A stretch of DNA of 64,000 bases from a virus, in IMG/VR virus record IMGVR_UViG_3300008262_000014, positions 32,001 through 96,000 of that record; one strand, written 5' to 3'. Position 1 is the stretch's first letter. The number at the start of each line of letters is the position of its first letter. Position numbers and translations under genes: made by a program. The notes beneath the pieces are model-generated. The model saw only the letters and a list, made by a program, of their open reading frames with translations. It searched no databases and was not told where the DNA came from. Positions 9,331-52,210 of this stretch are shown here, in pieces.

Positions 9331-9852
9331 TTATTTTTTAATTTGTGTTATTAATAAAGAAACTGGTGTATTCCTACCAAAAATTTTTACATCAACATCT
9401 ACTTTATCATCTTTAATTGAAGAAATGACACCAATGAAACCAAGAAACGGGCCATCAATAACGGTAATTGTCTCACCGATTTCATATTTTAGTTTTTTAT
9501 TAACTTTATGTTCGACTAATAAATCATCTTTAATTATTCTATCAACATCGTTCTTTCTCATTAATAATGGTTTTTTATCACCCATCATACCCATAATATT
9601 TGGTATTGAAGATATTTCTTTTAATTCATCCTCATTCATTTCCTTTTTTGCCTCAAAATACAAGTAACCATTATATATTACTTTTTCTCTTAACACTTTC
9701 TTGTCCTTAACAGTCACCAATTCACTATCTGTTGGACAGATAAACCTTATAATATTTTTAATATTACCTAGTGATATTTGTATATTGTATTGTTCATTCA
9801 ATTGTCTTTCTTTACCGGGTAATACTTTAATAACATACCAAAATGTATCCAT
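9331..9852 (-). CDS. nusG: Transcription termination/antitermination factor NusG
   Basis: NGN domain WYVIKVLPGKE..YNGYLY; KOW domain IGETITVIDGPFLGFIG..VKIFGRNTPV. Confidence 0.92.
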   Translation of the reverse strand: MDTFWYVIKVLPGKERQLNEQYNIQISLGNIKNIIRFICPTDSELVTVKDKKVLREKVIYNGYLYFEAKKEMNEDELKEISSIPNIMGMMGDKKPLLMRKNDVDRIIKDDLLVEHKVNKKLKYEIGETITVIDGPFLGFIGVISSIKDDKVDVDVKIFGRNTPVSLLITQIKK

Positions 9853-19591: not shown

Positions 19592-19660
19592 AAAAATTAT
19601 ACGCGTTTTATCGGTTAAAAATAAAATAAACAAAAATTTTTAAAAATGGAAATATTTCAG

Positions 19661-20290
19661 TTATTTTTTTAACTTTATTTTCCAGTAGATGCCAGCTTGT
19701 ATAGATGTGGTAAAGTTATTATTTAAACCAATACCTATACTATACATGTTTTCGGATTTTGTTTTCAAAACTAGAGTAGGTCCGAAATAATTAAAACCAA
19801 CTTTTCTGTCTGCCCCAATTATTCCTCCAACATATATTTGATTTTTAGGTAATTCTTTAATAAAAATACTATCCTTTATTGTAATTTGGTTTATTTCGGA
19901 CTTAAACTTTCTACCAATAATTTTATTTTTTTGGATAGTATCTGTTAAGGTTACCATACCTAAACTATCTTCTAATTTTATCGTGTCTTTGTATACATAC
20001 TTAGCATAGTAATCTCTTAATATTTCCGTAGTATCTACGTCCTGCGGTACGTCAACATATATTGGTCTGTCGACGTAAATTGTTTCACCTGGTTTGTATA
20101 ATGTTTTTGTTTTGGTAATGTACTGTGTATCAGTAATTCTTTTAATTACCTCGTATTTTTTACCATCGACCTTTATAACCTCACCCGGTACTGGATTAGG
20201 TTTAGGTGTACACATTTTAAGTAGGAGAATAACAATAAGTAAGACAGCAATCAATAGTGTTTTAAAGTCTAATTTAAGTATACCTTTCAT
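19661..20290 (-). CDS. Membrane-anchored protein with C-terminal beta strands (spanin-like/envelope candidate)
   Basis: N-terminal hydrophobic helix ending in Cys; DT repeats; C-terminal amphipathic strands ending GIYWKI. Confidence 0.5.
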   Translation of the reverse strand: MKGILKLDFKTLLIAVLLIVILLLKMCTPKPNPVPGEVIKVDGKKYEVIKRITDTQYITKTKTLYKPGETIYVDRPIYVDVPQDVDTTEILRDYYAKYVYKDTIKLEDSLGMVTLTDTIQKNKIIGRKFKSEINQITIKDSIFIKELPKNQIYVGGIIGADRKVGFNYFGPTLVLKTKSENMYSIGIGLNNNFTTSIQAGIYWKIKLKK

Positions 20291-20327
20291 ATATTTTTTT
20301 ATAATAAATATATGAAAGATAAATTCT

Positions 20328-21002
20328 CTATTTCTTTTTATTTATGATTTCATCGATTATACCATATTTTAATGATTCTTCAGCGGATAACCAAAGATCT
20401 CTACTGGCATCCTTTAATACTTGTTTTGGTGATTTGTTACAATATTGACCCAATAAATCAAATAAAACTTGATTTATTTTTTTCCATTCATTCATATCTA
20501 TTTCAGCATCTTGAATATTTCCACGAAATCCCCCACTAGATTGATGTAACATAGTTCTAGAAAATCTTAATGACCCTCTTTTACCCTTAGTTCCCGCACC
20601 AAGTAGAACAGACCCCATGGATGCTGCCATACCTGTGTTTATTGTTCTAATTTCGGATTTAATGTAATCCATCACATCAACCATAGATAAACCTGATTTT
20701 ACACTACCGCCAGGACTATCTATATGCATTGTAATGTCATTATTGTCAATACTATCCAAGAACATAAGTTGTGCTTGTACAACCGTGGACATATGGTCAT
20801 TGACTTCACCTGCAACCCATATAATACGTTCCATCATTAATCTTGAAAATACGTCCATCGCGGTTACATTCATTTGTCTTTCCTCAAGAATGTATGGGGT
20901 TAGACTGTTCTCAATTTTTTTGTTGTAATAGTGTAAATTCAAGGAACTTACACCGTGGTCTTTAGCGTAAAGACCAAAACTTTTGTGATCTTTTGGGGTC
21001 AT
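20328..21002 (-). CDS. clpP: ATP-dependent Clp protease proteolytic subunit
   Basis: DVFSRLMMERII, IDSPGGSV, GMAASMG (catalytic Ser), MLHQ, RDLWLSAEESLKYGIIDEI. Confidence 0.95.
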   Translation of the reverse strand: MTPKDHKSFGLYAKDHGVSSLNLHYYNKKIENSLTPYILEERQMNVTAMDVFSRLMMERIIWVAGEVNDHMSTVVQAQLMFLDSIDNNDITMHIDSPGGSVKSGLSMVDVMDYIKSEIRTINTGMAASMGSVLLGAGTKGKRGSLRFSRTMLHQSSGGFRGNIQDAEIDMNEWKKINQVLFDLLGQYCNKSPKQVLKDASRDLWLSAEESLKYGIIDEIINKKK

Positions 21003-21015
21003 AATTATATTTTTT

Positions 21016-21046
21016 CAAATTTAAAAACTAAAATGAGATAAACAAA
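21016..21046 (-). promoter_or_regulatory. Bacteroidota-type promoter upstream of clpP
   Basis: Minus strand TTTG (21046-21043), 19 nt spacer, TAAATTTG (21023-21016). Confidence 0.65.
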
Positions 21047-21051
21047 AAATG

Positions 21052-23385
21052 TTAAGAAATTTTTGTTGTTACATATTCAATCGAGGATATGTTTTCCTCT
21101 TTTTTGATCATAACAATATTGTCTGACCAATTTCTAATCAGGGGATTATGTGATATAACAAAAATATGTTGAAAATAATTTTTTATTTTTTTGAAAAATT
21201 CCCCTACCATTTCTAAATTATCATCCGCAATTTTACCAAAAACTTCATCCATTACGACTATATTTGGTTTTGGTAAAGAAGATACTTTAGTTAACACACT
21301 TCTTATCGCTAAAGAAGATACTGTTTTTTCATAACCAGATCCACTTGATAATGGTTTAACTACCCTTGTTTCATTGTCGATCATTAAAAATTCTAATTCA
21401 TTTTTATCATTAATGTTTAATTCCAATGTGAAATGACAGCTATCCGATAATAACCTATGTAATTCTTGGTTTAATAATGGAATCATATTTTTAATAATAA
21501 CTTTTGATATACCATTTTTCCCATATATTGCCAAATATATTTTAAAAACAGAAATTAATTCTTCTTCTGATTTTATTTTTAATATTAAATCATTATTTAT
21601 TACTATTTTTTCTTCTAAATTTTTAATGTTATTTGTTTCTCTCTCAATATTAGTGGTGATTTGCCTTATATCACCATTGGTAGTTTCTATTTGTGTTTTG
21701 AAAAAAATAACCTCAGAATCTATTTTTTTATTTTCCTCCAGTTTATTTTTATTACTCTCGTATATTGATAATTTATTTTCTTTAGAGTCTATTTCTAATT
21801 GTTTTTGTCCGACATCTAATTCGTGCTTTGCTTTACGTAATTTATTCCTTTCATATTCGTCGTATTCTTTTTTTAAATCACTAAAAACAATTTCTTCTTT
21901 TTGTAATTCACTTAATTTTATTTGATATTGATCTTCTTTTTCTTTTAATTCTTCAATTAACTTTTTCAAGTTATTAATTTCATCTGTATGATCAACTTCT
22001 TCTAATTGTCTTTTACATGTTGGACAAATACTACCTTCTTCAAACTGTTTTATTAAATTTTCATTTCTTTTTATATTGTCAATATTTAATTTTTTTTCTA
22101 CTTTTAAATCATTTATTTCTGAAACCAATTTTTCATGATCTTCTTCTAAATAATATTTATAGGGTTCTGTCACATTTATACTTTCCGTTAATTTTTCGAA
22201 CTCTTCTTTTTTCTTTTTTAATTCATTTATTTCTTTATTTAAGACATCTGGGTTAATCTTAATTAAATCTTGATCTATATCGTTATTTCTTTTCTTTAAA
22301 AGATTTTCTCTATCATCTTCTAATTTTTTTAATTTTTTCTCTATTTTTTTTAATTCATTTTTTAAACGAATAATTTCAGATTTTGATTTTTCAATATCAT
22401 CATTATGTGATATATTTTTATTTTCAAGATCAATAATATTATTCGTGTTTGAAATTAATTTTTTGGACCAATCATTGTAAATTGTTTTACATATTTCTTC
22501 TTTTTGTTTTAAATTTTCAAGTCCTAAAAATTTTGTAAGTATTTGACCTCTAGCAGTTGGTTTAGATTCGATTAATTCTTCTAAGTTATTTCCTGTAGTT
22601 AGAATTGTGGATAAAAAGTCCTCTTCTGTACCAATTGCGGATACGATAATTTGTTCTGTTTCTCTTCTTTGTTCACCAGACAAATTTTTTATTGTACCGT
22701 CTTCAGATATTTTAGAAAAATCTAAATCATTTTTTACAGTATATTCCCCCGATTTATTCTTTTTTCTTGATACAGTTCTGGTTATGACATATTCGTCACC
22801 ATCAATAACGACATGTCCTTTTACTTTAACATCATCAACATCACTAAATTTATTAAAAACTTCGATATTTGTTTTTGTTTTAGTTGTTGAATTGAAAAAC
22901 AAAAACATTAATAAATCAACTGTTGCAGTAGTTTTACCACCAAAATTTCTCGGGGTAGATTCAATGACAGTGATACCATTTAATTCTTTAAAATCAATAA
23001 CATTGTTTTCACCAAATGAAAGAAAATTAGAAAATTCAATTTTTTTAATAAACCATTTATTGTATCTTACTTTGTCTTGATTTAATTTATCAATTTGAGA
23101 ATTTACTTTATTGTCTAATCTATCAATTAATTCCCATTTAATATTAATATTATTTTCTTTAATAAAATCTTTTACTATTTTTTTTTGGTATTCAAAATCT
23201 AAAATATTATCAGATACTTCTAATGATTTTAATTTAGTTTTAGAATCACTTATTGCAATTTTAGTAACAATTTTTACATTTGTTGAGTTATATTTTTTTT
23301 CAAAATATGACTTAACTCTTTTAATTCTTTCTTGTGTTAAATTTTCGGGAGTATCTTCCCAATCGACCTTTATAAATGGATTCAT
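21052..23385 (-). CDS. sbcC: SbcC/Rad50 (T4 gp46-like) recombination ATPase
   Basis: IEFSNFLSFG, Walker A NFGGKTT, coiled coil with CPTC zinc hook, signature LSSGSGYE, Walker B VMDEVFG, ISHN. Confidence 0.9.
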   Translation of the reverse strand: MNPFIKVDWEDTPENLTQERIKRVKSYFEKKYNSTNVKIVTKIAISDSKTKLKSLEVSDNILDFEYQKKIVKDFIKENNINIKWELIDRLDNKVNSQIDKLNQDKVRYNKWFIKKIEFSNFLSFGENNVIDFKELNGITVIESTPRNFGGKTTATVDLLMFLFFNSTTKTKTNIEVFNKFSDVDDVKVKGHVVIDGDEYVITRTVSRKKNKSGEYTVKNDLDFSKISEDGTIKNLSGEQRRETEQIIVSAIGTEEDFLSTILTTGNNLEELIESKPTARGQILTKFLGLENLKQKEEICKTIYNDWSKKLISNTNNIIDLENKNISHNDDIEKSKSEIIRLKNELKKIEKKLKKLEDDRENLLKKRNNDIDQDLIKINPDVLNKEINELKKKKEEFEKLTESINVTEPYKYYLEEDHEKLVSEINDLKVEKKLNIDNIKRNENLIKQFEEGSICPTCKRQLEEVDHTDEINNLKKLIEELKEKEDQYQIKLSELQKEEIVFSDLKKEYDEYERNKLRKAKHELDVGQKQLEIDSKENKLSIYESNKNKLEENKKIDSEVIFFKTQIETTNGDIRQITTNIERETNNIKNLEEKIVINNDLILKIKSEEELISVFKIYLAIYGKNGISKVIIKNMIPLLNQELHRLLSDSCHFTLELNINDKNELEFLMIDNETRVVKPLSSGSGYEKTVSSLAIRSVLTKVSSLPKPNIVVMDEVFGKIADDNLEMVGEFFKKIKNYFQHIFVISHNPLIRNWSDNIVMIKKEENISSIEYVTTKIS

Positions 23386-24041
23386 TTTTTCTTATTTAAG
23401 AAATTTTCTCTTTTTTTTGTATAGTTTTGAACAAATTCTTCGTAAAATTTTGGATCTTCAAATGTAGTATTTTTAATCCAAATACCATCAACTAATGTGT
23501 AAAAATGTACATCTTTTAATTCCCAACACATCCAATCTTCTGGAGTTTTATTTCCATTATTGTCTACTTTAAAAATAGTATCAGGACTCCATCGACATAA
23601 ATCAGATATTTTTTTCTTATATACCTCATAATCAACAAAGAAAAATTCGGTAAAATCAAAATTAAATCTCAATAGTGAATTATATTCATAATCAGGGTGG
23701 TGGTATGTTTTTAAATTCCCAGTATCGGTTACCCAATCAAAATATTTATTAAAATATTTTTCTTTTCTTGCGGGGAAATTTGCGGTTGGATATGGTAAAG
23801 TATATTTATTAAAATTAGACGGATCTTGGTCTCTATATGATCCCTTCCATTTACCTTCTTCAACATCACACCCACCACGTCGATTTACATGTAGTAAATC
23901 TATTTTAAATTTTTTTGTATTAGATATTAAATCCCAATTAAAAATTTGTTTTAATGCACGTATTCCGTTTTCTCGACCAATATCATCAATAGTACTAACT
24001 TTTTCATTTGTATGGCGACAAGCACCAACTAAATTACCCAT
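23382..24041 (-). CDS. Hypothetical protein, possible PD-(D/E)xK-like nuclease
   Basis: 219 aa; FKIDLL..CDVEEGKW resembles a restriction-fold core; inserted between sbcD and sbcC. Confidence 0.45.
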   Translation of the reverse strand: MGNLVGACRHTNEKVSTIDDIGRENGIRALKQIFNWDLISNTKKFKIDLLHVNRRGGCDVEEGKWKGSYRDQDPSNFNKYTLPYPTANFPARKEKYFNKYFDWVTDTGNLKTYHHPDYEYNSLLRFNFDFTEFFFVDYEVYKKKISDLCRWSPDTIFKVDNNGNKTPEDWMCWELKDVHFYTLVDGIWIKNTTFEDPKFYEEFVQNYTKKRENFLNKKK

Positions 24042-24042
24042 T

Positions 24043-24360
24043 TTAATTATTATTTAATCTACTCTCCTCGAAAAATTCTACGATGGAGTTTATTGCCCAA
24101 ACTGAGCCAGCGGTAAACATACCGTCAAAAAATATACATGGTAATGTACTAATTTCAAAAAATTTATTTGTTAATCCACCCAAACATAGTGAAAGAAAAA
24201 ATCCAACCCACGTTGATGTACAAAGAGTGCAACTTATCAGATCACCAAAAAATTTTGATATTCTTTTAATAAAATTTCTTGTTCCTTCAAAAATCGATCC
24301 CCAAACTAATATGGAAGTCATACCATAAGCCATTAATGTCCAAAAAAATAAGTATGTCAT
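24043..24360 (-). CDS. DUF1360-like membrane protein
   Basis: LISCTLCTSTWVG CxxC-W motif between hydrophobic helices. Confidence 0.65.
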   Translation of the reverse strand: MTYLFFWTLMAYGMTSILVWGSIFEGTRNFIKRISKFFGDLISCTLCTSTWVGFFLSLCLGGLTNKFFEISTLPCIFFDGMFTAGSVWAINSIVEFFEESRLNNN

Positions 24361-24421
24361 AATTTTATTGTTTTTTTAATTATAAAATAAAAAAATGATA
24401 AAAAAAAATATTTTGCCGAAT

Positions 24422-24748
24422 TTATTCGTCATAAATATCTTTTTCTTTTTTTACTATTTGTTCAGTATTAGGTTTAATTATATTTTCAATTTTTTCTTCT
24501 TGTTCTTTTTCTATTGGTTTTAACCCACTCAAAACCCCGGCATCTTCCCATTTTTTTATTAATTCTTCCTTTGAAAGTATTTCTGGTGGTTCAATTTTTA
24601 TATTCGGTTTATCACCATATTTTAAATATGTAAAACCTTTATTAAAAACTTCTTTAGCAAATTTTTCGATATTAGTAATATTATTCAATTTACAATATTG
24701 AATAAATTCATCATCCAATATTAACGTGTTCTTCTGTTTCATTTTCAA
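24422..24748 (-). CDS. Hypothetical protein
   Basis: 108 aa ORF overlapping the sbcD 3' end. Confidence 0.6.
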   Translation of the reverse strand: MKMKQKNTLILDDEFIQYCKLNNITNIEKFAKEVFNKGFTYLKYGDKPNIKIEPPEILSKEELIKKWEDAGVLSGLKPIEKEQEEKIENIIKPNTEQIVKKEKDIYDE

Positions 24749-25529
24749 TATCTTTAATATCTTTTATTTTGAAATGTAAAAATGGTTGTTCATTTGGTAA
24801 ATCAAAAAAATCATATTTATCTTTTTTTATATCGTAGACTCCATACCCGTGATGTTTAACTGTTTCACCAAAGTTTTGTTGTATTAAACTACCAATCATA
24901 ACCGCCTTACCACCGTTAGGTAATTTAAATTGTTGTCTTTTATGAATATCACCACATAACAATAAATCAAGATCAACAAAATTCAATCTATCATAGGCAT
25001 CTTCAAATTCAAATCCCAAATCTGTTGATAACCCCTGTATTGGTCCATGAAATAATCCTACCGTTAATTTATTGTCATCTTTTGTAAATTTTGGTTTTTG
25101 ATTATGTTGATATAATGAATATACAACCCAATCAATATTATCATCATAATATACTCCACTATCTTTATAGTATGTTATCCAATCATTATTAAGTAATTCA
25201 ACTACAGGAGAGATACTATCTAATCTTTGTACATTGTTTTCTAAAAAATCATGATTACCTGGTATGATAACTACTTTACCAAAACGAGTTAATTCTTTTA
25301 AAAACCAACTTGTTAACATTAATTGTTCGTTTGAAATGTTAATCTTTTGATGTGCAATATCACCTGTGATGACTACTCTTACATCTAAAGGACCAATGTT
25401 ATCATCATACCAATCCACGACTTTTTTTTGTAAATCTTCTAACAATATTTCAAATTGTTTTTTATATAAATCATGTAATTGAAATGTTCTAATATGTAAA
25501 TCAGAAATGTGTATAATCTTTTTTATCAT
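24711..25529 (-). CDS. sbcD: SbcD/Mre11 (T4 gp47-like) metallophosphoesterase nuclease
   Basis: HISDLH, TGDIAH, PGNHD, FHG, GDIH motifs, GSLIQQNFGE. Confidence 0.88.
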   Translation of the reverse strand: MIKKIIHISDLHIRTFQLHDLYKKQFEILLEDLQKKVVDWYDDNIGPLDVRVVITGDIAHQKINISNEQLMLTSWFLKELTRFGKVVIIPGNHDFLENNVQRLDSISPVVELLNNDWITYYKDSGVYYDDNIDWVVYSLYQHNQKPKFTKDDNKLTVGLFHGPIQGLSTDLGFEFEDAYDRLNFVDLDLLLCGDIHKRQQFKLPNGGKAVMIGSLIQQNFGETVKHHGYGVYDIKKDKYDFFDLPNEQPFLHFKIKDIKDIENETEEHVNIG

Positions 25530-26383
25530 CTTTTAATATATTTTGTTAAATCCAAATCAAATACTTTTTTATTTACATCTTGAGGTACTTTATACTCTAC
25601 AAATGTACCGTCATCTTTCAATAAAACAACAACACATCCAAGTAGTCTTAAGTTTTCATATTTACTACCTTTTAACATTTTAAGGAAAAGTCTAGCATAT
25701 AAAGGTAATTGTAAATAATAATGTCCCAATGCCGTATCGTGGTAATCTTGGAATGGTGAGTACAATTTACCTGTGTAATGTTGTACTTCAAAATTTTTAG
25801 GCTGATTGGTTTTCCAATCGGTGACCACCAACCCATAATCTGTTTTATCTTTATTTAACATTAACCAAAATTTATCTGGTTGTCCTGTGTAACCTAATTC
25901 ATTATCACCTAAAACCATCTCAGTATCTAAAAGTACCGCACCTCTTTCGTGCATTAAATCTAAAAAATTTTTACCAGCCGAAATCATATTATCTCCCTTT
26001 TGAATTTGACTATCGTCACACTCGAATATTGGTTGTCTAACTTCTTTATAATTTCCATATCTTTCGACAAGTTCACTCTCTAACATATAATGAACTCTAC
26101 TACCCATATTAGTTGAGTAATTACCAGTTTCTCTCCATTGTTCTTGTAATTGTTTAGCCGATTCAGGATCACCATTAGACATACGTAACGCGGTACCTTC
26201 GGCATCAAATGGTTTATAGAATTTTTTTATTAATTTAGATACTGAAGGAAAATTACTTCTAATTTTACCTTCGGTGTCCATCATATAATATATGTGTTTT
26301 TCTTCAACAAAAGTTAATTGTATTTCTTTTTGTCTGTTTGAAATAATTTGTTTTATTTCATCAGAAATTTTTTTTAATTCCAT
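25526..26383 (-). CDS. PD-(D/E)xK exonuclease (RecB/Cas4-like phage family)
   Basis: PSVS, GSRVH, GQPD..DWKT, LQLPLY motifs. Confidence 0.8.
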   Translation of the reverse strand: MELKKISDEIKQIISNRQKEIQLTFVEEKHIYYMMDTEGKIRSNFPSVSKLIKKFYKPFDAEGTALRMSNGDPESAKQLQEQWRETGNYSTNMGSRVHYMLESELVERYGNYKEVRQPIFECDDSQIQKGDNMISAGKNFLDLMHERGAVLLDTEMVLGDNELGYTGQPDKFWLMLNKDKTDYGLVVTDWKTNQPKNFEVQHYTGKLYSPFQDYHDTALGHYYLQLPLYARLFLKMLKGSKYENLRLLGCVVVLLKDDGTFVEYKVPQDVNKKVFDLDLTKYIKR

Positions 26384-26384
26384 T

Positions 26385-27326
26385 TTAATCTAATTGATAT
26401 GTTTTATAATCATCTAATTTACCTTCTAAATCTGCAATATCTTTATCCCCGTTAAGTTTTATTACCCAAATTTTACCAAATAATTTTCCACAATTTAATT
26501 TATGATACAACTTTTCGGTATCTAACCAAGCATCTGGATCTAAAACAATTATTATTTTTTTTGCCTTTTCGTATAATAAATTAAATAATCTTTGACTCAT
26601 AAATTTACCTAACATGGGAATTGAATTAGGTAGAAATAAACTATCAAAAACACCCTCAACAATATATACGGGTTCTTCCCAATTTATCAAGTGTTCGTTC
26701 CATATTATTGTTTCTTTTTGTGCACTTGGATTTTTATATTTTAATTTAGTATTAGATAGATATGATCTGGCAATAAAATAATTAACCATATCATTTTCAT
26801 CATAAGATGGTATTATTATTCTATTTGAATATGGACCATCTTTACAAAATCCTATATTATATTTTGAAATTATTTCATCAGTAACATTTCTCTTTTTTAA
26901 ATAATTTATCGCCTGTTTATAATCTGGAGTTAATTTAAATCCTTTAGATACGTTTTTTATCGTAATAAATTCTTTAGGTAATTTTACTCTTTTATGTACA
27001 ACGTTTTTAAAATTTTCAACCTCGTCTGGTTTTAATAAAAGGTATTTTTTTAATTGTTTGGGTGTACCAAATTTTTTTATTAATTTATATATTGATCCAT
27101 GCGTTTCATTTGTTTCACTACAAACCCAACATTTATAAACTGAATATTTGTAATTTACCTCAAAATTACCTTTACCATCCCCTTCATCTAAACCTTTTAT
27201 CTCATAAGAGCAAACAGGACAATCAAATGTCATTTGACATTTATAATCATTATGTGATCGATATTCACCAAGAATATCCTCAAGAATTTCTACTATTGGT
27301 TCATATTGAACATCGACACTAATCAT
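26385..27326 (-). CDS. dnaG: DNA primase (zinc finger plus TOPRIM)
   Basis: CPVC..CWVC zinc finger; RIIIP..ARSY..KYKNP; VEGVFD; LDPD; KDIAD; probable start MISVDV at 27326. Confidence 0.88.
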   Translation of the reverse strand: MISVDVQYEPIVEILEDILGEYRSHNDYKCQMTFDCPVCSYEIKGLDEGDGKGNFEVNYKYSVYKCWVCSETNETHGSIYKLIKKFGTPKQLKKYLLLKPDEVENFKNVVHKRVKLPKEFITIKNVSKGFKLTPDYKQAINYLKKRNVTDEIISKYNIGFCKDGPYSNRIIIPSYDENDMVNYFIARSYLSNTKLKYKNPSAQKETIIWNEHLINWEEPVYIVEGVFDSLFLPNSIPMLGKFMSQRLFNLLYEKAKKIIIVLDPDAWLDTEKLYHKLNCGKLFGKIWVIKLNGDKDIADLEGKLDDYKTYQLD

Positions 27327-27354
27327 TTTATAATGATAAGAAAAAAAAATGATA

Positions 27355-27430
27355 AAAAAAAATCCCCCAGATACACCACATCTGAGGGATAACACCAACC
27401 AACGTATATTTCTATACGTCCCGTCTTAAT
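27355..27430 (-). ncRNA. Candidate small structured RNA / attenuator (GAAA-capped hairpin plus intrinsic terminator)
   Basis: GACGUAUA-GAAA-UAUACGUU hairpin, GGUUGGUGUU linker, AUCCCUCAGAU-GUGGUGU-AUCUGGGGGAU hairpin plus U-run; TATTTAT motif at 27451-27457 upstream. Confidence 0.5.
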
Positions 27431-27481
27431 ATTAAAATATATAAAAAAACATAAATAGTAAAATATATTTTGCCGGATTTT

Positions 27482-28087
27482 TTATTTACCCTGTGATTTA
27501 ATCATATTGACATAACCAATTACTGCAGTTGCGGCATCGCTCATATCGTAATTTTCTTTTTTTAGTTTACCATTTTTGTCATAAATCCATTTAACATCAT
27601 GACATACGGCATTTACATGATCCCAAATAACTTGTTTTTTATCAATATCTTTAGGATATCCACCAAATAAAACTTTATTACCTTTAGTATTTTTACCAAC
27701 TAGATCAGGAAACGCAAATTTTCTTGCATTATATGTTGATATAAATGTTGGTACAATTTCTAAAGTATCGTAAACAATTTTACAAATCATTGTATTATAT
27801 CTTAATAAAGTTTGTACGGTATAGATGTTATTAGAATTTAATAATGGTTCTTCAATAATAACTCGAAGAATTCCCATATTTTTATATGCTTCCAAATGTT
27901 TTTTGAAGGCGTCAGATTTTTTTAACAATTCCTCTAATTTATCATCAGGTTGTGGTTTTATTTTGGGTGAAAAATGTGTTAATTCTAATAATTTAGAACC
28001 TGTTAAATCAAACAATGCCCATCCAATTGTTTTTGTTGAAATATCTAACCCTAATATTTTGGGTGTATTTTTTAATTTTACATTCAT
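27482..28087 (-). CDS. ruvC: RuvC-like Holliday junction resolvase
   Basis: ILGLDISTKTIGWA, VIIEEP, DMSDA acidic triad of the RNase H fold. Confidence 0.8.
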   Translation of the reverse strand: MNVKLKNTPKILGLDISTKTIGWALFDLTGSKLLELTHFSPKIKPQPDDKLEELLKKSDAFKKHLEAYKNMGILRVIIEEPLLNSNNIYTVQTLLRYNTMICKIVYDTLEIVPTFISTYNARKFAFPDLVGKNTKGNKVLFGGYPKDIDKKQVIWDHVNAVCHDVKWIYDKNGKLKKENYDMSDAATAVIGYVNMIKSQGK

Positions 28088-28126
28088 AGAACAATATATA
28101 CGTGATATTTTTAGAAATGTAAATAG

Positions 28127-30235
28127 TTAAAAATCAATTTTAACCGCAAAAACTTGTGTTCCTAATCTATCGACGGGTTTAGCTGTTTTGGCCACAACTA
28201 ATGGTTCTTTATTTTTATCTAATAAAGCAATTTCAGTTATTTTTTTAGTTTTACCGATAGAATATGTTGGGTTCTGTGTCTCAGTGAATTGTGTACTTGG
28301 TAAGTTAACTAAAAAATTCATCACTTCAATATCACTTGCTCTAACAAGTCTAATGCTTCCAGGAAATGGTTGTTCTTCACCAAATTTAGGATCATTAGAA
28401 GGTTCTCTAACTATATAATTAGGTTTTAAATAATTTTCAATGTTGAATTGTGTACCTCCAGTGTTGAATTTTGCGAAATTTAATATAAAAGATTTATCTT
28501 TTATATTATTCTTATCTAAGAAACTTATTCCATCACCACCAGCTTCAGATGTAAAATCAACTTCAACCCAATCATCTGGTACAGGGTACTGTCCTGTGTT
28601 TGTGATTTGTACTAAAATTTTAAATTCGGTTGCTAAATATCCATTAACAATATCGGTTAATGATGTTTTCATGTATCTAAATGAATTAGTACCAAATTTA
28701 ACAACTAAGCTTGTTGGAATTGTGGTGCCCTGTATTTTAGAATAGTAATTACATGGCATAGAATTCAAAGCCAAATCAGAATTTGTAAATGTATAACTAA
28801 CCCAAATTGTTTGATTTGTGGAACCAGTTAAAAGAGAATTTGCCGGTGTGTCGTCACTTGGAACTAAATATAATTTAGGTGCATCTAATGTGTGTCTTCT
28901 ATTACTTCTATAATCTAATAATGCAACTAATTCTTGATCATCAAATACTATTGTTTTCTTTGTATAAAATACTTTACCTACTTTATAATTTTGTTCATCT
29001 AACAAATATCTAAATGGTATTGATGAATTACCATTTAATATTGGTGACGGTGTGTTTATTTGATAATCAGTTGTATCCATTCTAAATAACGCACCAACAA
29101 CATTACTTGTATTTCTGTGATAACAAATAAATGGTATAAAAACTTCAAAATATTCCGTATCTGTGATTGGGATACCATCTTCATCATCAATTATTGAATC
29201 TGATAAATTAGTATTATTACTTATGTAATCATCATATTTAAAAAATCTTTCGGGATTAAAAATTATATCACCTAATTCTGAATAATGTATAACGGCAAGA
29301 ATTCTTTGTTCTTCTGGTTGGACAACAATTTCTTCGTCAAATGAATTATAGTATGTTGCCCTATTGTTAATTGTTTGTCCCGATGATGTTGTATATCCTA
29401 AAAATTGTTTTGTAGAAATATATTTATTACTTTCAAATCCCAATAAGTTACTATTTGTTATACCAGTATAACCTATTGGGTTTTCATTCCATATTACATT
29501 TAATGACCAAGGATCGTGTTGATCCATTGGATCTGGTGATTGTGGTAAACAAACAGGGGCGATACTTGTTGGGGATGAAAATTCAATTTCACATTTATTA
29601 CAAACAACTTGTGCGAATCCTGTTAATGTTGATAGATCGGGTGTTGGTCTATCCAAATAAATCGTGTTACCACTAATACTAAGTACTTTATATATTAAAC
29701 TATTTGATTGTCCTGTTACAATTGGGACATTAGGATCGGTACCCCCGAATTGATCAAAAACTAAAGTAATATATTCACAAGTTTGAAATGAATTTCCCGA
29801 TACTACTGTTAATGTATTTGTACCATTTACGGTAGATATGTCAATTCTTTCTGTTGTACAAATTACTTTTGTTCCAGTACAATCATCTTCATTATATTCA
29901 ATATATTGTGAAACAAATCCAGCTGGACCCATCGGATTTCTTAAGGTTTGTGTATATGAGTTTTGAACAGGTACCCCATATGTTGTTGTAGTTTGAGTAG
30001 AATCAATTTTATAGGGATATTTTACTACAGTATCTTTATCATTTGGTGAAAATACTTTTTGATACGGAGTATTATTTAATCCAGTTAATTGATTAAAAGG
30101 ACTATTATAATCAAACTCCGAATCACCAATTTGAAAATACGAAATAACAAAATTACCTTTTGCAATAGAATTTCTACCCTTTTTGGTAACTCTAGCTGTT
30201 AAAAAATCTGAATTAAACTCACTTAAAAAACTCAT
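28127..30235 (-). CDS. Virion structural (tail/baseplate) protein
   Basis: 702 aa; N-terminal TKKGR..YFQIGDSEFDY and C-terminal ITEIALLDKNKEPLVVAK..P motifs typical of large-phage tail/baseplate proteins. Confidence 0.7.
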   Translation of the reverse strand: MSFLSEFNSDFLTARVTKKGRNSIAKGNFVISYFQIGDSEFDYNSPFNQLTGLNNTPYQKVFSPNDKDTVVKYPYKIDSTQTTTTYGVPVQNSYTQTLRNPMGPAGFVSQYIEYNEDDCTGTKVICTTERIDISTVNGTNTLTVVSGNSFQTCEYITLVFDQFGGTDPNVPIVTGQSNSLIYKVLSISGNTIYLDRPTPDLSTLTGFAQVVCNKCEIEFSSPTSIAPVCLPQSPDPMDQHDPWSLNVIWNENPIGYTGITNSNLLGFESNKYISTKQFLGYTTSSGQTINNRATYYNSFDEEIVVQPEEQRILAVIHYSELGDIIFNPERFFKYDDYISNNTNLSDSIIDDEDGIPITDTEYFEVFIPFICYHRNTSNVVGALFRMDTTDYQINTPSPILNGNSSIPFRYLLDEQNYKVGKVFYTKKTIVFDDQELVALLDYRSNRRHTLDAPKLYLVPSDDTPANSLLTGSTNQTIWVSYTFTNSDLALNSMPCNYYSKIQGTTIPTSLVVKFGTNSFRYMKTSLTDIVNGYLATEFKILVQITNTGQYPVPDDWVEVDFTSEAGGDGISFLDKNNIKDKSFILNFAKFNTGGTQFNIENYLKPNYIVREPSNDPKFGEEQPFPGSIRLVRASDIEVMNFLVNLPSTQFTETQNPTYSIGKTKKITEIALLDKNKEPLVVAKTAKPVDRLGTQVFAVKIDF

Positions 30236-30266
30236 ATACTTTATAAATATTTAATAAATAAAATTT

Positions 30267-31235
30267 TTAATCTGGTATTATATTAAAATTAAGATCACAA
30301 GGTATTACTATTTCAATGTCACATGGAGGTGGACATTTTTCAAAATTAGTAAAGAATATATTCCCTTCAGTAACAGTTACCGCGGACCACATTTTTGTGG
30401 GTGGGTCACTAATTGGGTAATTGTTATCATAATCTAAATATGAATATAATGTTCCACTACCTAAACTATCCCTAATCTCCCATCTATTACTTGTACTTGA
30501 CCAATAAGCAACATAATCATCACAACATATTTTATAATATGGTCTATCATTATAAACTCCGACAGGACTGTAAAGAGTATGTGTAAAACCCGTATCCCCA
30601 CTACTACATTTATGATTAAAACAAACAGGACAACCAATAAAAACTACCTTAACTTGAAATCCTCCTTGTTTTTTAGGATCAATATTTGTGTTATTTTGTA
30701 TACTTCCATCACCATGTTCTAGAAAAATATATACCGGTCTATGTGTTGGGGTAAAATTTTCAAATTCGTATACTATACCTGTTGTCGGATTTGTTGTTGC
30801 TGTTGTTACAAAAGTAGATGCCGATATTTCATATGTTAAACCTGTATATACTCTATATGAGTTTGGTGTATTATTAATTACAGAGGAATGATTACCGTAA
30901 TTAGTATTACCTGAATATGAATCATAAATTGTTACTGTTTTACCAGTACAAGTACCGCCAGTACTAACATTAAGGAAAAAATCTACAGTATCGTAACATT
31001 CAAAAATTTTACTTTCGTGAGTGTAGACGATAGTTACGGCGGATTTATTATCTACAATATCTGTTATTCTTATATAGTACGTTGTGTTAAATTCTAAATT
31101 TGTAATTACAACTGATGTGGTCGCACTGGAATATGTTCCACCAAAATATAAATAATTAGTATTATCGTTTTTACTATATTCAACTGTGAAGTTGTTCGGT
31201 ACATTTAAATTATTTAGTCTAACATTCAAACCCAT
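30267..31235 (-). CDS. Virion accessory protein with N-terminal Fn3-like domain and Cys-flanked module
   Basis: ITNLEFNTTYYIRI Fn3 signature; C-terminal module shared with the 2199 aa protein. Confidence 0.6.
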   Translation of the reverse strand: MGLNVRLNNLNVPNNFTVEYSKNDNTNYLYFGGTYSSATTSVVITNLEFNTTYYIRITDIVDNKSAVTIVYTHESKIFECYDTVDFFLNVSTGGTCTGKTVTIYDSYSGNTNYGNHSSVINNTPNSYRVYTGLTYEISASTFVTTATTNPTTGIVYEFENFTPTHRPVYIFLEHGDGSIQNNTNIDPKKQGGFQVKVVFIGCPVCFNHKCSSGDTGFTHTLYSPVGVYNDRPYYKICCDDYVAYWSSTSNRWEIRDSLGSGTLYSYLDYDNNYPISDPPTKMWSAVTVTEGNIFFTNFEKCPPPCDIEIVIPCDLNFNIIPD

Positions 31236-31286
31236 GATACTATAAATATAAAATATTAATTTTTTTAAATAAAGATTATAATATTA

Positions 31287-31613
31287 TTATGGTACTTCCG
31301 CTGGTGTTGTTAACCCAACAGCTTCCGCGTATTTTAGATATGTTTCAACACATGACGGTGTTGTAAAATCTTCTATATTAAGTCCCTTAACTTTCACTAT
31401 TAGATCTTCGCAGTGTTCTGAAACAAATCTCAAATAAAAATATTGTGTAAATGCACTTATTGACGTATCATATAATTCAAATGGATTTATATTAAATTGA
31501 AAATTAGTTGTTACACCAGACGCCACTAAAGTAGTTGTTGTTGCTGATGTTATACCATAATAAACATTAAATGGAACGTTAGAAGGTACTAATTGTATAT
31601 TTGTTATTATCAT
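31287..31613 (-). CDS. Hypothetical virion protein
   Basis: 108 aa, Thr-rich, within the structural block. Confidence 0.55.
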   Translation of the reverse strand: MIITNIQLVPSNVPFNVYYGITSATTTTLVASGVTTNFQFNINPFELYDTSISAFTQYFYLRFVSEHCEDLIVKVKGLNIEDFTTPSCVETYLKYAEAVGLTTPAEVP

Positions 31614-31626
31614 ATATTATTAATTT

Positions 31627-32616
31627 TTATAGTCCACCACATTGATTAAATCTTTTTATTAAATATGTATTCGATCCCACTGTTATTGTTTGTGGATTTG
31701 ATATTATTGATATTGAGTTAACTTGTATTTGTGTTACTCTTAGAGTGGCGGTACCCGATGTTCTAGTTCCGAATGTAGTATTAGTACTAGTTGAACCAGA
31801 ATTAAGTGTTAATGTACCAACTTGAGATAGTGTACCATTAGTTGTTGAACAAATTCCATCATTATATTGTGTTATTACGCCAGATGAAAATGTTAAATTA
31901 TCTAATGTTGTACCAGATATTACATTTATAAGTAAATTAATTTGATTAGATATAACCGCATCTTCTTCAGGTATTAATTCAATTTCCGCTGTTGGTGTTG
32001 GTGCACTACAACTTTGACAAGCACCAATTACCGTTGCCACATTTGTACCATTTGTAACCACACTTACATATTGACCAGAATAAGTTAAAAATGTATTATA
32101 ACCTGGAACATAAGTACTAAATGATGGGTGAGTGAATGTTGTTGATGTACAGAATGTTGAGTTATTTCCGACGGAGTTCACCAATAAACTACCAATACCA
32201 AGACAAGCATTTAGAAATATTGATGAGGGGTTTTCAATTAATGTACCAATGAATAAAATTGTTGTGGTAGATGTAGGTGTTGGTGTTGTAGTTGTAGTTG
32301 GAGTTATTGTTGGAGTTATTGTTGGGGTTGTGGTTAATGTACTAGTAGGTGTAGATGTTATTGTTGGTGTATTAGTGGGTGTTGGAGTTGGGGTAATGGT
32401 AGGTGTGGATGTTGGTGAGACATATAAATTACATACAATATCTGAATTAGTTATTCCAGAAAATGTAATAATATATTGACCATTAATATACTCTGCAATA
32501 TATACATAAGGTATTACTTGTAACCCTAAATTAAATGTTCCACCGGTATCGGGATTATAAATTATTGATGCTGTATATCCTTCGAAATTTTGTGATGTTA
32601 TCGTTATATTTGGCAT
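31627..32616 (-). CDS. Modular virion/fibre accessory protein with Thr-Pro linkers (paralog A)
   Basis: 329 aa; N-terminal and middle domains homologous to 32635-33612; (TP)n linker. Confidence 0.65.
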   Translation of the reverse strand: MPNITITSQNFEGYTASIIYNPDTGGTFNLGLQVIPYVYIAEYINGQYIITFSGITNSDIVCNLYVSPTSTPTITPTPTPTNTPTITSTPTSTLTTTPTITPTITPTTTTTPTPTSTTTILFIGTLIENPSSIFLNACLGIGSLLVNSVGNNSTFCTSTTFTHPSFSTYVPGYNTFLTYSGQYVSVVTNGTNVATVIGACQSCSAPTPTAEIELIPEEDAVISNQINLLINVISGTTLDNLTFSSGVITQYNDGICSTTNGTLSQVGTLTLNSGSTSTNTTFGTRTSGTATLRVTQIQVNSISIISNPQTITVGSNTYLIKRFNQCGGL

Positions 32617-32634
32617 ATTAAAATTTTAATTTTA

Positions 32635-33612
32635 TTAAACACAAGCACCGTCTTGTAAAATTATTTCAACAATATCAGTTGATGATATGGGGATAGGTGA
32701 AAATGTGTCAGTAGTGGTATTAGTATACGTGTTACAATCAATAACAAATGAGTTAACAACTAATGATATATTAACTTGAGATGATGTTGTTACAGTATAA
32801 TCTATTCCGAGTGTTGTGCCGGCATGTGTTCCTTCCGCTTGTGACCCATTACTTACCGGTAATGATCCAACAGTTATTAAATAAAACGCAGGGGTTATTG
32901 ATCCAATAGAAGTTGCCGCTGTTGTGTTATTTATAACAAAGAAATTATTACCCGATGTTGGTGTACTAGTTGGTGTTGCGGTAGGTGTAATTGTTGGTGT
33001 TGGTGTAATAGTTAATGTTGGTGTAATAGTTGGTGTAGGTGTACTAGTTGACGTAGGTGTAAGTGTTGGTGTTGGACATGTTAAACATGGACCAAGTACT
33101 GATGCGGTATTTGTACCGTTAAATAATATACTAAAATATGTGGTCCCAAATCCAATAAATGTTTGAGATCCATTAAGGAATGAACTAAATGATGGATTTG
33201 TAAATGTTGTTGATGAACAGAATGTTGTACTATTACCCGTTACATTATATGTTGTCCCACTCCCCGCACAGATACCCAATTCATAATCTCCAGTATTTTG
33301 AACCACATCACCAACAAAATTACTTAATGTAGGTGTGGGTGTGTTACTTAATGTAGGTGTGGGTGTGTTACTTAATGTAGGTGTGGGTGTACTAGTTGGT
33401 ACAGGACTTAATGTATTATCAATTAATGTTGCAGAACATGTAACACCGACTCCAGAAAAATATAAAACATATGTCCCAAAAGTGTATTCAGAAGTGTATG
33501 TATAAGGTATTGTTTGTGACCCTAAATTAAATGTTCCACCGGTATCGGGATTAAATGTTATTACCGCCGTTTGTCCACTATAATTACTACTTGTTAATTC
33601 TACTGTTCTCAT
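32635..33612 (-). CDS. Modular virion/fibre accessory protein with Thr-Pro linkers (paralog B)
   Basis: 325 aa; shares NPDTGGTFNLG and NSTxFCxSTTFTxPSFS domains with paralog A. Confidence 0.65.
   Translation of the reverse strand: MRTVELTSSNYSGQTAVITFNPDTGGTFNLGSQTIPYTYTSEYTFGTYVLYFSGVGVTCSATLIDNTLSPVPTSTPTPTLSNTPTPTLSNTPTPTLSNFVGDVVQNTGDYELGICAGSGTTYNVTGNSTTFCSSTTFTNPSFSSFLNGSQTFIGFGTTYFSILFNGTNTASVLGPCLTCPTPTLTPTSTSTPTPTITPTLTITPTPTITPTATPTSTPTSGNNFFVINNTTAATSIGSITPAFYLITVGSLPVSNGSQAEGTHAGTTLGIDYTVTTSSQVNISLVVNSFVIDCNTYTNTTTDTFSPIPISSTDIVEIILQDGACV
33320..33390. repeat. 24 bp tandem repeat x3 (TPTPTLSN)
   Basis: ttacttaatgtaggtgtgggtgtg units starting at 33320, 33344 and 33368. Confidence 0.9.
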
Positions 33613-33613
33613 T

Positions 33614-52171: not shown

Positions 52172-52210
52172 GATAATAAATATAATGATATTCGAAATCT
52201 TTTTAAATGA

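What the first reader, a model, noticed from the sequence alone, without database searches (positions are those of the whole stretch)
27355..27457. Promoter, GNRA hairpin and terminator unit upstream of the primase-nuclease operon (sRNA or antitermination leader)
Seen: TATTTAT motif, then an 8 bp hairpin capped by GAAA, a single-stranded GGUUGGUGUU linker and an 11 bp terminator hairpin with a U-run. UGGUGU occurs twice in unpaired positions (linker and terminator loop). Known: lambda boxB and the LoaP (NusG paralog) target are small GNRA-like hairpins acting ahead of terminators, and repeated unpaired motifs typify protein-titrating sRNAs. Inference: either a ~75 nt sRNA or a leader through which the phage NusG licenses read-through into primase/sbcD. 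The GUUGGUGUU seed is also antisense to the AACACCAAC codon runs of the Thr-Pro linker genes (speculative).
Basis: partly seen in the sequence, partly recalled or inferred. Interest (0 to 1): 0.75.

Follow-up and report, generated by a model that had tools for sequence, protein, structure and literature searches.

The report
Conserved small RNA cassette before phage primase
A clade of huge freshwater phages carries, once per genome just before the DNA primase gene, a conserved promoter, hairpin and terminator unit that should make a roughly 70-base structured RNA of unknown role, and it matches no described RNA family.

Summary
The RuvC-like gene stop is followed by a promoter-like -35/-10 pair and AGACGGGAC. 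Next come an 8-bp GAAA-capped hairpin, the linker GGUUGGUGUU, an 11-bp terminator with loop GUGGUGU, and U9. A second -10-like box sits 6 nt before the primase ATG at 27326.

The unit is a conserved RNA family.
- It was found in 58 of 88 pattern hits and after 41 of 57 RuvC homologues.
- There is exactly one strong copy in every record searched whole that has it.
- Both helices covary: 14 of 21 pairs show double changes, and 0 of 500 shuffles reach the observed score.
- In paired cells G·U outnumbers A·C by 79 to 2, so the sense RNA is what is selected.
- Rfam gives no match.

The GNRA loop is not a defining feature, because other lineages carry 6-8-nt A/U-rich loops there. The most persistent feature is the terminator loop UGGUG(U). 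Outgroups have only a promoter between RuvC and primase, so the cassette is an insertion.

The phage NusG link is weak. 45 records have both, but two NusG-positive phages lack the element and several NusG-negative phages keep a variant.

My best reading, at about 0.4, is an autonomous small RNA whose terminator also ends the RuvC operon. An antitermination gate is the main rival. No expression data were available.

The parts
27482..28087 (-). RuvC-like Holliday junction resolvase gene. Its stop codon (27484-27482) is followed directly by the cassette's promoter.
   Evidence: phrog_159, E 1.4e-7. Homologues at 57-90% identity in 57 viral contigs.
27470..27474 (-). GGCAA motif about 8 nt upstream of the -35 box. 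It is coding in some relatives and non-coding in others (as in the window), yet it is retained.
   Evidence: Upstream sequences printed. A second CGGCAAAATAT copy lies at 24417.
27457..27462 (-). -35-like hexamer TTTACT of promoter P1.
   Evidence: A TTxxxx hexamer 16-18 nt upstream of the -10 box in 44 of 47 distinct relatives (17 nt in 41). TTTACT occurs 11 times and TTTACA 9 times.
27434..27441 (-). -10-like box of P1 (TATATT at 27441-27436, or TATTTT at 27439-27434).
   Evidence: TATATT in 34 of 47 relatives, at a fixed distance from the RNA. The related 9-mer TATATTTAT is intergenic in 7 of 7 coding-strand occurrences in the 128-kb record, and in 0 of 6 on the other strand.
27418..27426 (-). 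AGACGGGAC, the conserved 5' motif (GGACGGGAC in most relatives). The inferred transcription start lies at or just before it.
   Evidence: GACGGG is invariant in alignment A1, partly because my search pattern forced it. It is also kept in RuvC-anchored, pattern-independent relatives of the main subfamily, and it changes in distant ones.
27401..27420 (-). Hairpin P1: 8 bp with GAAA loop at 27412-27409.
   Evidence: Four pairs show compensatory changes. The loop sequence is variable across lineages.
27391..27400 (-). Single-stranded linker GGUUGGUGUU. The core GUUGG is conserved in the main subfamily.
   Evidence: RNAalifold pairs part of it with the 5' motif (5 invariant pairs, so no covariation evidence either way).
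27362..27390 (-). Intrinsic terminator hairpin with 11-bp arms and loop GUGGUGU at 27379-27373.
   Evidence: All 10 modelled pairs covary. The loop keeps UGGUG in 19 of 19 pattern-independent relatives and in divergent NusG-less lineages.
27354..27362 (-). U-tract of nine T. The first T also closes the stem.
27327..27353 (-). Post-terminator T-rich spacer with a second -10-like hexamer TATCAT (27338-27333), 6 nt before the primase ATG. This is the candidate promoter P2, which would give a leaderless or near-leaderless primase mRNA.
   Evidence: A TAnnnT hexamer lies 3-11 nt before the ATG in 47 of 47 relatives. Other TATATTTAT sites in the record show the same geometry, as does the sole promoter of outgroup phages.
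26385..27326 (-). DnaG-like primase gene, first gene of the downstream gene string. The mechanical ORF 26385-27398 with a TTG start over-extends into the RNA.
   Evidence: phrog_47, E 3.3e-42; PF08275. The ATG was read.
9331..9852 (-). Phage NusG-like gene (NGN plus KOW domains), 17.5 kb downstream on the same strand. It is a possible but unproven partner.
   Evidence: PF02357 and PF00467. phrog_6386. NusG TIGR00922 scores 105 bits, below its cut-off.

Best explanation
The cassette is an autonomous small-RNA transcription unit. It was inserted into what was originally the primase promoter region.

Proposed working:
- Promoter P1 (-35 TTTACT, -10 TATATT-like) starts transcription at or next to AGACGGGAC.
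- The transcript folds into a 5' hairpin (P1), a short G/U-rich single strand and a very strong intrinsic terminator. It is released as a discrete RNA of about 70 nt.
- The same terminator ends the long upstream operon that finishes with the RuvC-like gene.
- The primase, exonuclease and SbcCD gene string restarts from a second -10-like box (P2), 6 nt before the primase ATG.
- The RNA itself is the functional product. Its sequence-conserved unpaired parts are contact sites for an unidentified partner, either a protein or another RNA. These parts are UGGUG(U) in the terminator loop (kept in every lineage that has the cassette) and, in the main subfamily, GGACGGGAC and GUUGG.

Shown: the anatomy, conservation, covariation, strand of selection, single copy per genome and insertion history.

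Inferred: the transcription start, release of a stable RNA, activity of P2, and the existence of a partner.
For: 1. Both helices are held by selection on the sense RNA. 97.6% of cells are paired, 14 of 21 pairs have changes on both sides, and 0 of 500 shuffles reach the observed values. Slid controls give 38-52% paired. G·U outnumbers A·C by 79 to 2 in the variable pairs.
2. The promoter is conserved at a fixed distance from the RNA. Its -10 motif family is strictly intergenic on the coding strand of the record, in 7 of 7 occurrences.
3. The terminator is very strong (11 bp, -16.3 kcal/mol, U9), so most P1 transcripts should end there.
4. A -10-like hexamer lies 3-11 nt before the primase ATG in 47 of 47 relatives. 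It has the geometry of other promoters in the record. Relative G001 has lost the cassette and carries a plain terminator followed by the same T-rich/-10-like module. The operon therefore probably does not depend on read-through.
5. The terminator stems change freely while the loop keeps UGGUG, in 19 of 19 pattern-independent sequences. This also holds in lineages with a different first hairpin and no 5' motif. A plain terminator does not need that.
6. There is exactly one strong copy per record: G000, G002 and G003, and 21 of 21 further records.
7. Outgroup phages have only TTTACA-N17-TATATT between RuvC and primase. The cassette is therefore a derived insert that was then kept.
Against: - There is no expression evidence of any kind.
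- No target was found. Sites complementary to the loop or linker are not enriched near start codons in the 128-kb record: 4 sites for ACACCA against roughly 7 expected, and 1 for ACCAAC.
- Complementarity of the loop to the first codons of primase mRNA (ACACC) occurs in only about 18 of 46 distinct relatives. It is absent in the window.
- Promoter calls in 28% G+C DNA are weak evidence. The sigma-70 scan finds fewer promoter-like sites than in shuffles.
- The layout of promoter, hairpin and strong terminator at the head of a 20-kb terminator-free gene string is equally what a phage antitermination gate looks like.
- In two lineages the linker shrinks to AA, so a linker 'seed' is not universal.
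Confidence: 0.4

Rival explanations
1. The cassette is a processive-antitermination gate for the replication and recombination operon. RNA polymerase starting at P1 meets a loading site made of the hairpin plus conserved flanks, and then a strong terminator. A phage factor modifies the polymerase there so that it reads through into primase and the 20 kb behind it. The factor could be the NusG-like protein or another protein.
For: - The layout matches known gates: promoter, small hairpin, then terminator.
- The next convincing minus-strand terminator after 27362 is at 7302-7280. That leaves about 20 kb and some 27 genes unpunctuated, including the sigma factor and NusG genes.
- 45 records carry both NusG and the main-type element, with NusG always 17-21 kb downstream.
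- G001 is syntenic (78 of 130 ORFs shared) and lacks both.
- G025 lacks NusG precisely between conserved neighbours, and its 5' module is eroded while the terminator is kept.
- The terminator arms vary while the upstream parts are fixed. Any read-through must therefore be factor-driven and cannot work by alternative pairing.
Against: - G088 and G093 have NusG but no element at the RuvC-primase junction.
- G060 (93% complete), G061, G051, G054 and G063 have no NusG yet keep a promoter, a hairpin and a UGGUG-loop terminator.
- G059 lacks NusG and keeps ACGGGAC, the hairpin and GGUUGG.
- On the RuvC tree NusG needs 4 changes and the element needs 4. Only one independent pair lies on starred branches, and the sign test gives p = 1.
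- The P2-like box suggests the operon has its own promoter.
- A gate does not explain a conserved terminator loop.
- The NusG protein scores below the LoaP, UpxY and RfaH cut-offs.
Confidence: 0.27
2. It is an ordinary operon-end terminator for the RuvC operon, sitting between two promoters. The conserved extra motifs are DNA-level promoter or regulator sites, or historical residue, and the short RNA has no function.
For: - Some relatives manage with a plain terminator at this junction (G001, G064, G065) or with no terminator at all (G093 and the outgroups).
- The terminator does sit at the end of a long co-directional gene string.
Against: - The first hairpin covaries as RNA.
- G·U against A·C is 79 to 2.
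- The terminator loop sequence is kept while the stems turn over.
- P1 is conserved at a fixed distance from the hairpin.
- None of this is needed for a plain terminator, and none of it appears at the other terminators in the record.
Confidence: 0.13
3. It is a replication-origin transcript. The short G-rich RNA made next to the primase gene primes or opens an adjacent A/T-rich stretch, as at transcription-dependent phage origins.
For: - It is single-copy per genome and lies directly beside the primase gene.
- It has a promoter and a G-rich transcript followed by T-rich DNA.
Against: - Cumulative GC skew in the complete relative G086 simply follows gene orientation. It shows no extremum near the element at 204.7 kb.
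- A transcript released at a strong terminator is a poor R-loop former.
- No origin-binding protein sites were identified.
Confidence: 0.05
4. It is a riboswitch or classical attenuator, in which a ligand or a stalled ribosome chooses between an antiterminator and the terminator.
For: It occupies a leader position with a terminator.
Against: - The terminator arms differ completely between relatives while everything upstream is fixed. No conserved alternative pairing with the 5' arm is therefore possible.
- There is no conserved leader peptide. An AUG in the loop occurs only in the window and a few others.
- Rfam gives no match.
- The folded part ahead of the terminator is only about 35 nt.
Confidence: 0.02

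Closest known systems
LoaP-dependent dfn leader of Bacillus velezensis (PMC12691694; abstract and section 10 read)
   Same: Both have a 5' leader with a small RNA hairpin followed closely by an intrinsic terminator. Both sit ahead of a long operon, in a genome that encodes a NusG-family protein.
   Different: - The LoaP hairpin is UNCG-type. Here the cap is GAAA or a variable A/U-rich loop.
- The LoaP terminator is weak and NusA-dependent. This one is very strong.
- loaP lies beside its target. The phage NusG gene lies 17-21 kb downstream.
- The phage protein scores 51 bits against a LoaP cut-off of 125.
- The element persists in NusG-less phages.
UpxY/opsX recruitment sites of Bacteroides capsule operons (PMC11685472; abstract and two of three parts of Results read)
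   Same: - The predicted hosts are in the same phylum.
- Both are ~40-bp leader signals made of a nascent-RNA hairpin followed by a conserved stretch about 10 nt long. Here that is the hairpin plus GUUURGUUGG, preceded by GGACGGGAC.
   Different: - opsX acts as a pause site read in non-template and upstream duplex DNA, with no adjoining strong terminator.
- upxY is the first gene of the operon it controls.
- The phage protein scores 45.7 bits against a UpxY cut-off of 100.
- Pausing could not be tested here.
Lambda late promoter PR' with terminator tR' ('6S' transcript) and antiterminator Q; lambda nut (boxA/boxB) with N. Recalled textbook knowledge; no call.
   Same: A constitutive phage promoter fires into a nearby strong terminator and makes a short RNA. 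A long operon lies behind it.
   Different: - No Q or N homologue was looked for or seen.
- boxB needs a conserved GNRA-like loop, and the loop here is not conserved.
- The conserved terminator loop has no counterpart in either system.
Phage-encoded small regulatory RNAs with a 5' hairpin and a terminator hairpin, such as the leader-derived immunity RNAs of P4 and P1. Recalled; no call.
   Same: Both are a short structured RNA of about 70-80 nt made at the head of the operon it sits in. Sequence-conserved unpaired stretches are the active sites.
   Different: - Those RNAs have known complementary target sites in the same leader. No such sites were found here.
- There is no sequence or Rfam similarity.

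Membership tests
Intrinsic (Rho-independent) terminator | G+C-rich stem-loop directly followed by a U-tract, on the transcribed strand, downstream of a gene | tested here: met
   11-bp stem, -16.3 kcal/mol, nine U, 90 nt after the RuvC stop. All 10 modelled stem pairs covary.
Lambda-type nut site (boxA + boxB) | Hairpin with a conserved GNRA-like loop that is the protein contact | tested here: not met
   The loop is GAAA, GUAA or GCAA in some lineages and a 6-8-nt A/U-rich loop in others.
Lambda-type nut site (boxA + boxB) | N-family antiterminator gene and boxA consensus | not tested
   No search was made. The boxA consensus is known to me only from memory.
LoaP leader | UNCG-type hairpin bound by LoaP (PMC12691694, section 10) | tested here: not met
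   No UNCG cap occurs in any of the 47 aligned sequences.
LoaP leader | Cognate LoaP-class NusG paralogue encoded next to the target | tested here: not met
   NF033641 scores 51.1 bits against a cut-off of 125. The gene lies 17-21 kb away.
LoaP leader | Intrinsic terminator shortly after the hairpin | tested here: met
   The terminator starts 10 nt after the hairpin.
UpxY/opsX site | ~40-bp leader signal made of a pause hairpin plus a conserved downstream stretch (PMC11685472, Results) | tested here: inconclusive
   The layout fits in the main subfamily. Pausing cannot be assessed from sequence, and the downstream stretch is lost in several lineages.
UpxY/opsX site | UpxY-family protein encoded as the first gene of the controlled operon | tested here: not met
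   NF033644 scores 45.7 bits against a cut-off of 100. The first gene is primase.
NusG-paralogue-dependent element (any class) | Presence and absence tracking the paralogue across genomes | tested here: inconclusive
   45 records have both. Two have NusG only (G088, G093). At least seven NusG-less records keep a variant or R1-like element. On the tree there are 4 changes each, 1 supported independent pair, and p = 1.
Any Rfam family | Match at the gathering score | tested here: not met
   0 matches in the window at the gathering score. The best sub-threshold match is 23.3 bits against 51, on the wrong strand.
Riboswitch / classical attenuator | Conserved alternative pairing that competes with the terminator | tested here: not met
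   The terminator arms are unrelated in sequence between relatives while the upstream parts are invariant.
Trans-acting small RNA gene | Own promoter and own terminator bounding a short non-coding transcript | tested here: met
   Met by sequence only. The -35/-10 pair is conserved, the motif family is intergenic-specific, and a terminator is present. There are no transcript data.
Trans-acting small RNA gene | Conserved unpaired seed with identifiable complementary targets | tested here: inconclusive
   Conserved unpaired motifs exist. No enrichment of complementary sites was found in the phage record. There is partial complementarity to the primase 5' end in about 18 of 46 relatives. Host targets could not be searched.
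Trans-acting small RNA gene | Detected as a discrete RNA | not testable with these tools

The most novel reading that the evidence does not exclude
The RNA is a ribosome-directed decoy or guide. All five near-complete relatives tested encode ribosomal protein bS21. Published work on Bacteroidia shows that bS21 hides the 3' tail of 16S rRNA. The invariant terminator loop GGUGU can pair with the tail segment just 5' of the anti-Shine-Dalgarno core. In 10 sampled Bacteroidota 16S ends (taken from 22 of 41 genomes that matched), that segment reads AAUACC in 5, AACACC in 2, AUCACC in 2 and another sequence in 1. GGUGU pairs with ACACC by Watson-Crick pairs and with AUACC through one G·U. An abundant phage RNA displaying this motif could bind freed 16S tails. 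Together with phage bS21, it could then bias which messages host ribosomes accept.
Probability: 0.04. Interest if true: 0.9.

Novelty: new member of a known kind. Interest (0 to 1): 0.52.

Why it matters
The huge bS21-encoding phages of freshwater Bacteroidota are abundant, and none that I know of has been grown in the laboratory. Almost nothing is known about how they control their genes.

This cassette is a compact non-coding element with strong covariation support. It sits at a fixed, single place, the junction between a recombination gene string and the replication gene string, and it has a clear insertion history.

Whichever reading is right, it is a handle on transcription control in these phages.
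- If it is a small RNA, it is one of very few conserved ncRNAs known from huge phages of Bacteroidota, a phylum without Hfq or ProQ (recalled, no call).
- If it is a gate, it would be a phage example of terminator-gated operon entry. It might be tied to a phage NusG-like factor, and a published in vitro system with Bacteroides RNA polymerase already exists for testing that.

The terminator loop, which keeps its sequence while its stem turns over, is unusual in its own right.

Tried and rejected
- **Known RNA families.** Rfam gave 0 matches at the gathering score in the window. At permissive E-values the 201-nt region gave only chance-level hits. ARAGORN found no tRNA or tmRNA.
- **Similar DNA in isolated phages.** blastn found none. 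The nearest isolate by primase protein is a Flavobacterium phage at 32% identity. It has only a plain terminator before primase and no model hit.
- **Expression.** No RNA holder was listed among 21 runs, which were all DNA from lake or freshwater metagenomes.
- **Host-genome counterpart or CRISPR-repeat mimic.** A pattern for the 5' half found 6 places in the prokaryote genome collection. None has the hairpin plus terminator.
- **Trans targets in the phage.** No enrichment near start codons.
The runs exist, but the complementary linker extension is not conserved.
- **Leader peptide.** An AUG in or next to the loop is present only in the window and a few relatives.
- **Origin of replication by GC skew.** Uninformative, because skew follows gene strand.
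- **NusG co-occurrence.** It looked strong until wider sampling found exceptions in both directions. The tree test has no power.
- **Basal extension of the first hairpin** (GAC.GG with UU.GUU). The pairs are invariant, with only a few one-sided compatible changes, so it is neither supported nor refuted.
- **Not run.** Structure and complex predictions, because no protein partner is defined.
- **Not opened.** Supplementary files of the cited papers. The supplementary tables of PMC9723584 (gene families, expression) could bear on whether this junction is transcribed.

Full report
**What is there**

All genes around the finding run on the minus strand. Reading that strand, the order is as follows:
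- The stop codon of a RuvC-like resolvase gene (27482-28087; phrog_159).
- A GGCAA motif.
- A -35-like TTTACT (27462-27457).
- After 15-17 nt, a -10-like TATATT/TATTTT (27441-27434).
- AGACGGGAC (27426-27418).
- An 8-bp hairpin capped by GAAA (27420-27401).
- The linker GGUUGGUGUU (27400-27391).
- An 11-bp hairpin with loop GUGGUGU (27390-27362).
- Nine U.
- A T-rich spacer containing TATCAT (27338-27333).
- Six nt later, the ATG of a DnaG-like primase (27326; phrog_47 and PF08275).

Behind primase come an exonuclease, SbcD-like and SbcC-like genes, a prohead protease homologue, a sigma-70-family factor, a methyltransferase and a NusG-like gene.

The exception is 'TATTTAT' (27457-27451), which lies at the -35/spacer boundary, so it cannot be the -10 box. 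The terminator is the best terminator-like site in 20000-36000. The intergenic RNA folds better than 199 of 200 shuffles.

**It is a conserved RNA family**

Loci found through the primase protein carry the same unit in 13 of 14 cases. A DNA pattern built from those hit 88 viral contigs, and 58 of them are true members by a covariance model.

The pattern forced some bases, so I also anchored on the RuvC protein. In that set 41 of 57 loci have a strong model hit directly after RuvC, and one more has a degenerate copy.

On 28 distinct sequences, 97.6% of pair cells are standard pairs and 14 of 21 pairs show changes on both sides. No shuffle out of 500 reaches the observed values, and slid controls drop to 38-52% paired. 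All ten modelled terminator pairs covary, and so do four pairs of the first hairpin.

In the 47-sequence alignment, G·U cells outnumber A·C cells by 79 to 2 in the variable pairs. Selection therefore acts on the sense-strand RNA. The opposite strand and duplex DNA are not what is selected.

Every record searched whole that has the unit has exactly one strong copy. A few records searched also give one weak extra hit of chance level. Rfam has nothing like it. Full-text searches gave nothing relevant.

**Which phages**

The window is part of a 128-kb viral record judged 41% complete. Relatives are 287-336 kb, and the DNA-holding runs come from lake and freshwater metagenomes.

All five near-complete relatives tested encode ribosomal protein bS21. 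This places the clade with the bS21 phages described in PMC9723584 (abstract and section 13 read). That paper predicts Bacteroidetes hosts. Its main text does not mention NusG, sigma, terminator or intergenic features.

Two further observations agree with a Bacteroidetes host. Start codons in the record lack Shine-Dalgarno sequences, and the nearest isolated relatives by primase are Flavobacterium phages.

**What is and is not conserved**

Pattern-independent relatives show that the GNRA cap is not a defining feature. Several lineages have 6-8-nt A/U-rich loops on a covarying stem.

GGACGGGAC and GUUGG define a main subfamily. More distant lineages change or lose them.

The most persistent feature is the terminator loop. 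UGGUG is present in 19 of 19 pattern-independent aligned sequences. It is also present in lineages whose first hairpin is unrelated and whose linker is only AA (G051, G054, G063), or whose unit has a 60-nt insert (G059). None of the other terminators in the record has this loop.

**History**

Outgroup phages (RuvC 57-65% identical) have only TTTACA-N17-TATATT and about 10 nt between RuvC and the primase ATG. So does G093. The cassette is therefore an insertion between the ancestral primase promoter and the gene.

After the terminator, every lineage again has a T-rich stretch and a TAnnnT hexamer 3-11 nt before the ATG. That geometry matches other promoters in the record. The 9-mer TATATTTAT is intergenic in 7 of 7 coding-strand occurrences, although intergenic DNA is only 3.9% of the record. 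It is intergenic in 0 of 6 occurrences on the other strand, and it sits 5-14 nt before start codons.

G001 lost the cassette, gaining an extra ORF and a plain terminator, and it keeps this downstream module. I infer a second promoter, P2, so primase need not depend on read-through.

**The NusG idea**

A NusG-like gene (NGN plus KOW domains) lies at 9331-9852. It is closest to housekeeping NusG and falls below the LoaP, UpxY and RfaH cut-offs.

At first the link looked good.
- NusG was found 17-21 kb downstream in every element-bearing record long enough to show it.
- The syntenic complete genome G001 lacks both.
- G025 lacks NusG precisely and has an eroded 5' module.

Wider sampling through the neighbouring methyltransferase changed this.
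- G088 and G093 have NusG but no element.
- G060 (93% complete), G061, G051, G054 and G063 have no NusG but keep a hairpin and a UGGUG-loop terminator.
- G059 has no NusG but keeps the main-type 5' module.

A RuvC tree needs four changes for each trait. It offers one supported independent pair, and the sign test has no power. An earlier RuvC+primase tree does place G001 and G025 inside element-bearing clades, so those two are secondary losses.

My reading is that NusG may use or shape the GGACGGGAC/GUUGG module. The core cassette, however, works without it.

**Mechanism**

A competing antiterminator fold is excluded, because the terminator arms are unrelated between relatives while the upstream parts are fixed.

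Two serious readings remain.

(a) Autonomous small RNA.
- P1 fires into a very strong terminator, and a 5' hairpin and a 3' hairpin would stabilise the product.
- Conserved unpaired G/U-rich motifs would be contact sites.
- P2 serves the operon.

(b) Antitermination gate.
- The next convincing minus-strand terminator is 20 kb downstream, at 7302-7280.
- The layout recalls the LoaP leader, which has a hairpin and then a terminator (PMC12691694).
- In size and order it also recalls the ~40-bp opsX sites of Bacteroides UpxY, made of a pause hairpin plus a conserved stretch (PMC11685472).

I rank (a) first at 0.40 and (b) second at 0.27, for three reasons: the P2 evidence, the NusG exceptions, and the conserved terminator loop, which a gate does not explain.

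No target or partner was found. Complementary sites are not enriched near phage start codons. Loop complementarity to the first primase codons (ACACC) is limited to about 18 of 46 relatives and is absent in the window.

**Limits**

- There are no transcript data.
- Promoter calls in 28% G+C DNA are weak when taken alone.
- Many records are near-duplicates, so counts of records are not counts of independent events.
- The trees rest on one or two short proteins and were built in quick mode.
- Supplementary files of the papers were not opened.

Noticed in passing
window 24361-24421 (minus strand): This intergenic region reads like the element's own intergenic region with the promoter-RNA-terminator core removed. 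It has CGGCAAAATAT followed directly by T9-ATCA-T7 and a -10-like box. It is the only other intergenic CGGCAA site in the 128-kb record. It was not found at the matching place in the relatives checked.
   Followed up: partly
G000 record, coding strand; in the window near 52184, 41155, 31250 and 20312: The 9-mer TATATTTAT occurs 7 times on the coding strand, always intergenic and 5-14 nt before a start codon. It occurs 6 times on the other strand, never intergenic. It is probably the main promoter -10-type box, and it implies leaderless or very short-leader mRNAs.
   Followed up: partly
window 9331-9852 and 18776-19633 (minus strand): The phage encodes a full-length NusG-like protein (NGN plus KOW). 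It also encodes a group 1/2-like sigma-70 factor with regions 2 and 4. Both lie inside the 20-kb terminator-free string that starts at primase.
   Followed up: partly
relatives G086, G002, G001, G054, G060: All five near-complete relatives encode ribosomal protein bS21. The clade is therefore that of the published freshwater 'bS21 phages'. The gene is not within the 128 kb held for the window's own record.
   Followed up: partly
window 31627-32616, 32635-33612, 33614-40213 (minus strand): These genes hold dense runs of AACACCAAC-like codons (Thr-Pro repeats). There are 75 matches at up to 1 mismatch in the window against 19 expected, clustered at 31991-32389, 32957-33073 and 34098-34184.
   Followed up: no
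L170 (G001), L174, L285 (G058), downstream of RuvC: In three lineages a homologous small ORF has been inserted between RuvC and primase in place of the RNA cassette. In G001 it is followed by an unrelated plain terminator.
   Followed up: partly
upstream of the -35 box in relatives (L087, L065, L023, L016, L037, window 27470-27474): GGCAA(C) is conserved about 8 nt upstream of the -35 box. This holds whether it encodes the RuvC C-terminus or lies after the stop codon, which suggests a DNA-level signal.
   Followed up: no
primase start codons in relatives: In about 18 of 46 distinct relatives the second to third primase codons read (A/C/G)AC-ACC or AGC-ACC. These use the rare ACC codon and give 5-8 nt of complementarity to the terminator loop. 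The window lacks this.
   Followed up: partly
window 26385-27398: The mechanical ORF with a TTG start at 27398 runs through the linker and terminator. The real primase start is the ATG at 27326.
   Followed up: yes
L284 (G059), RuvC-primase junction: This variant has a roughly 60-nt insert between the linker and the terminator. In it, GGUUGG is paired with a new CCAACC to form an extra hairpin.
   Followed up: no
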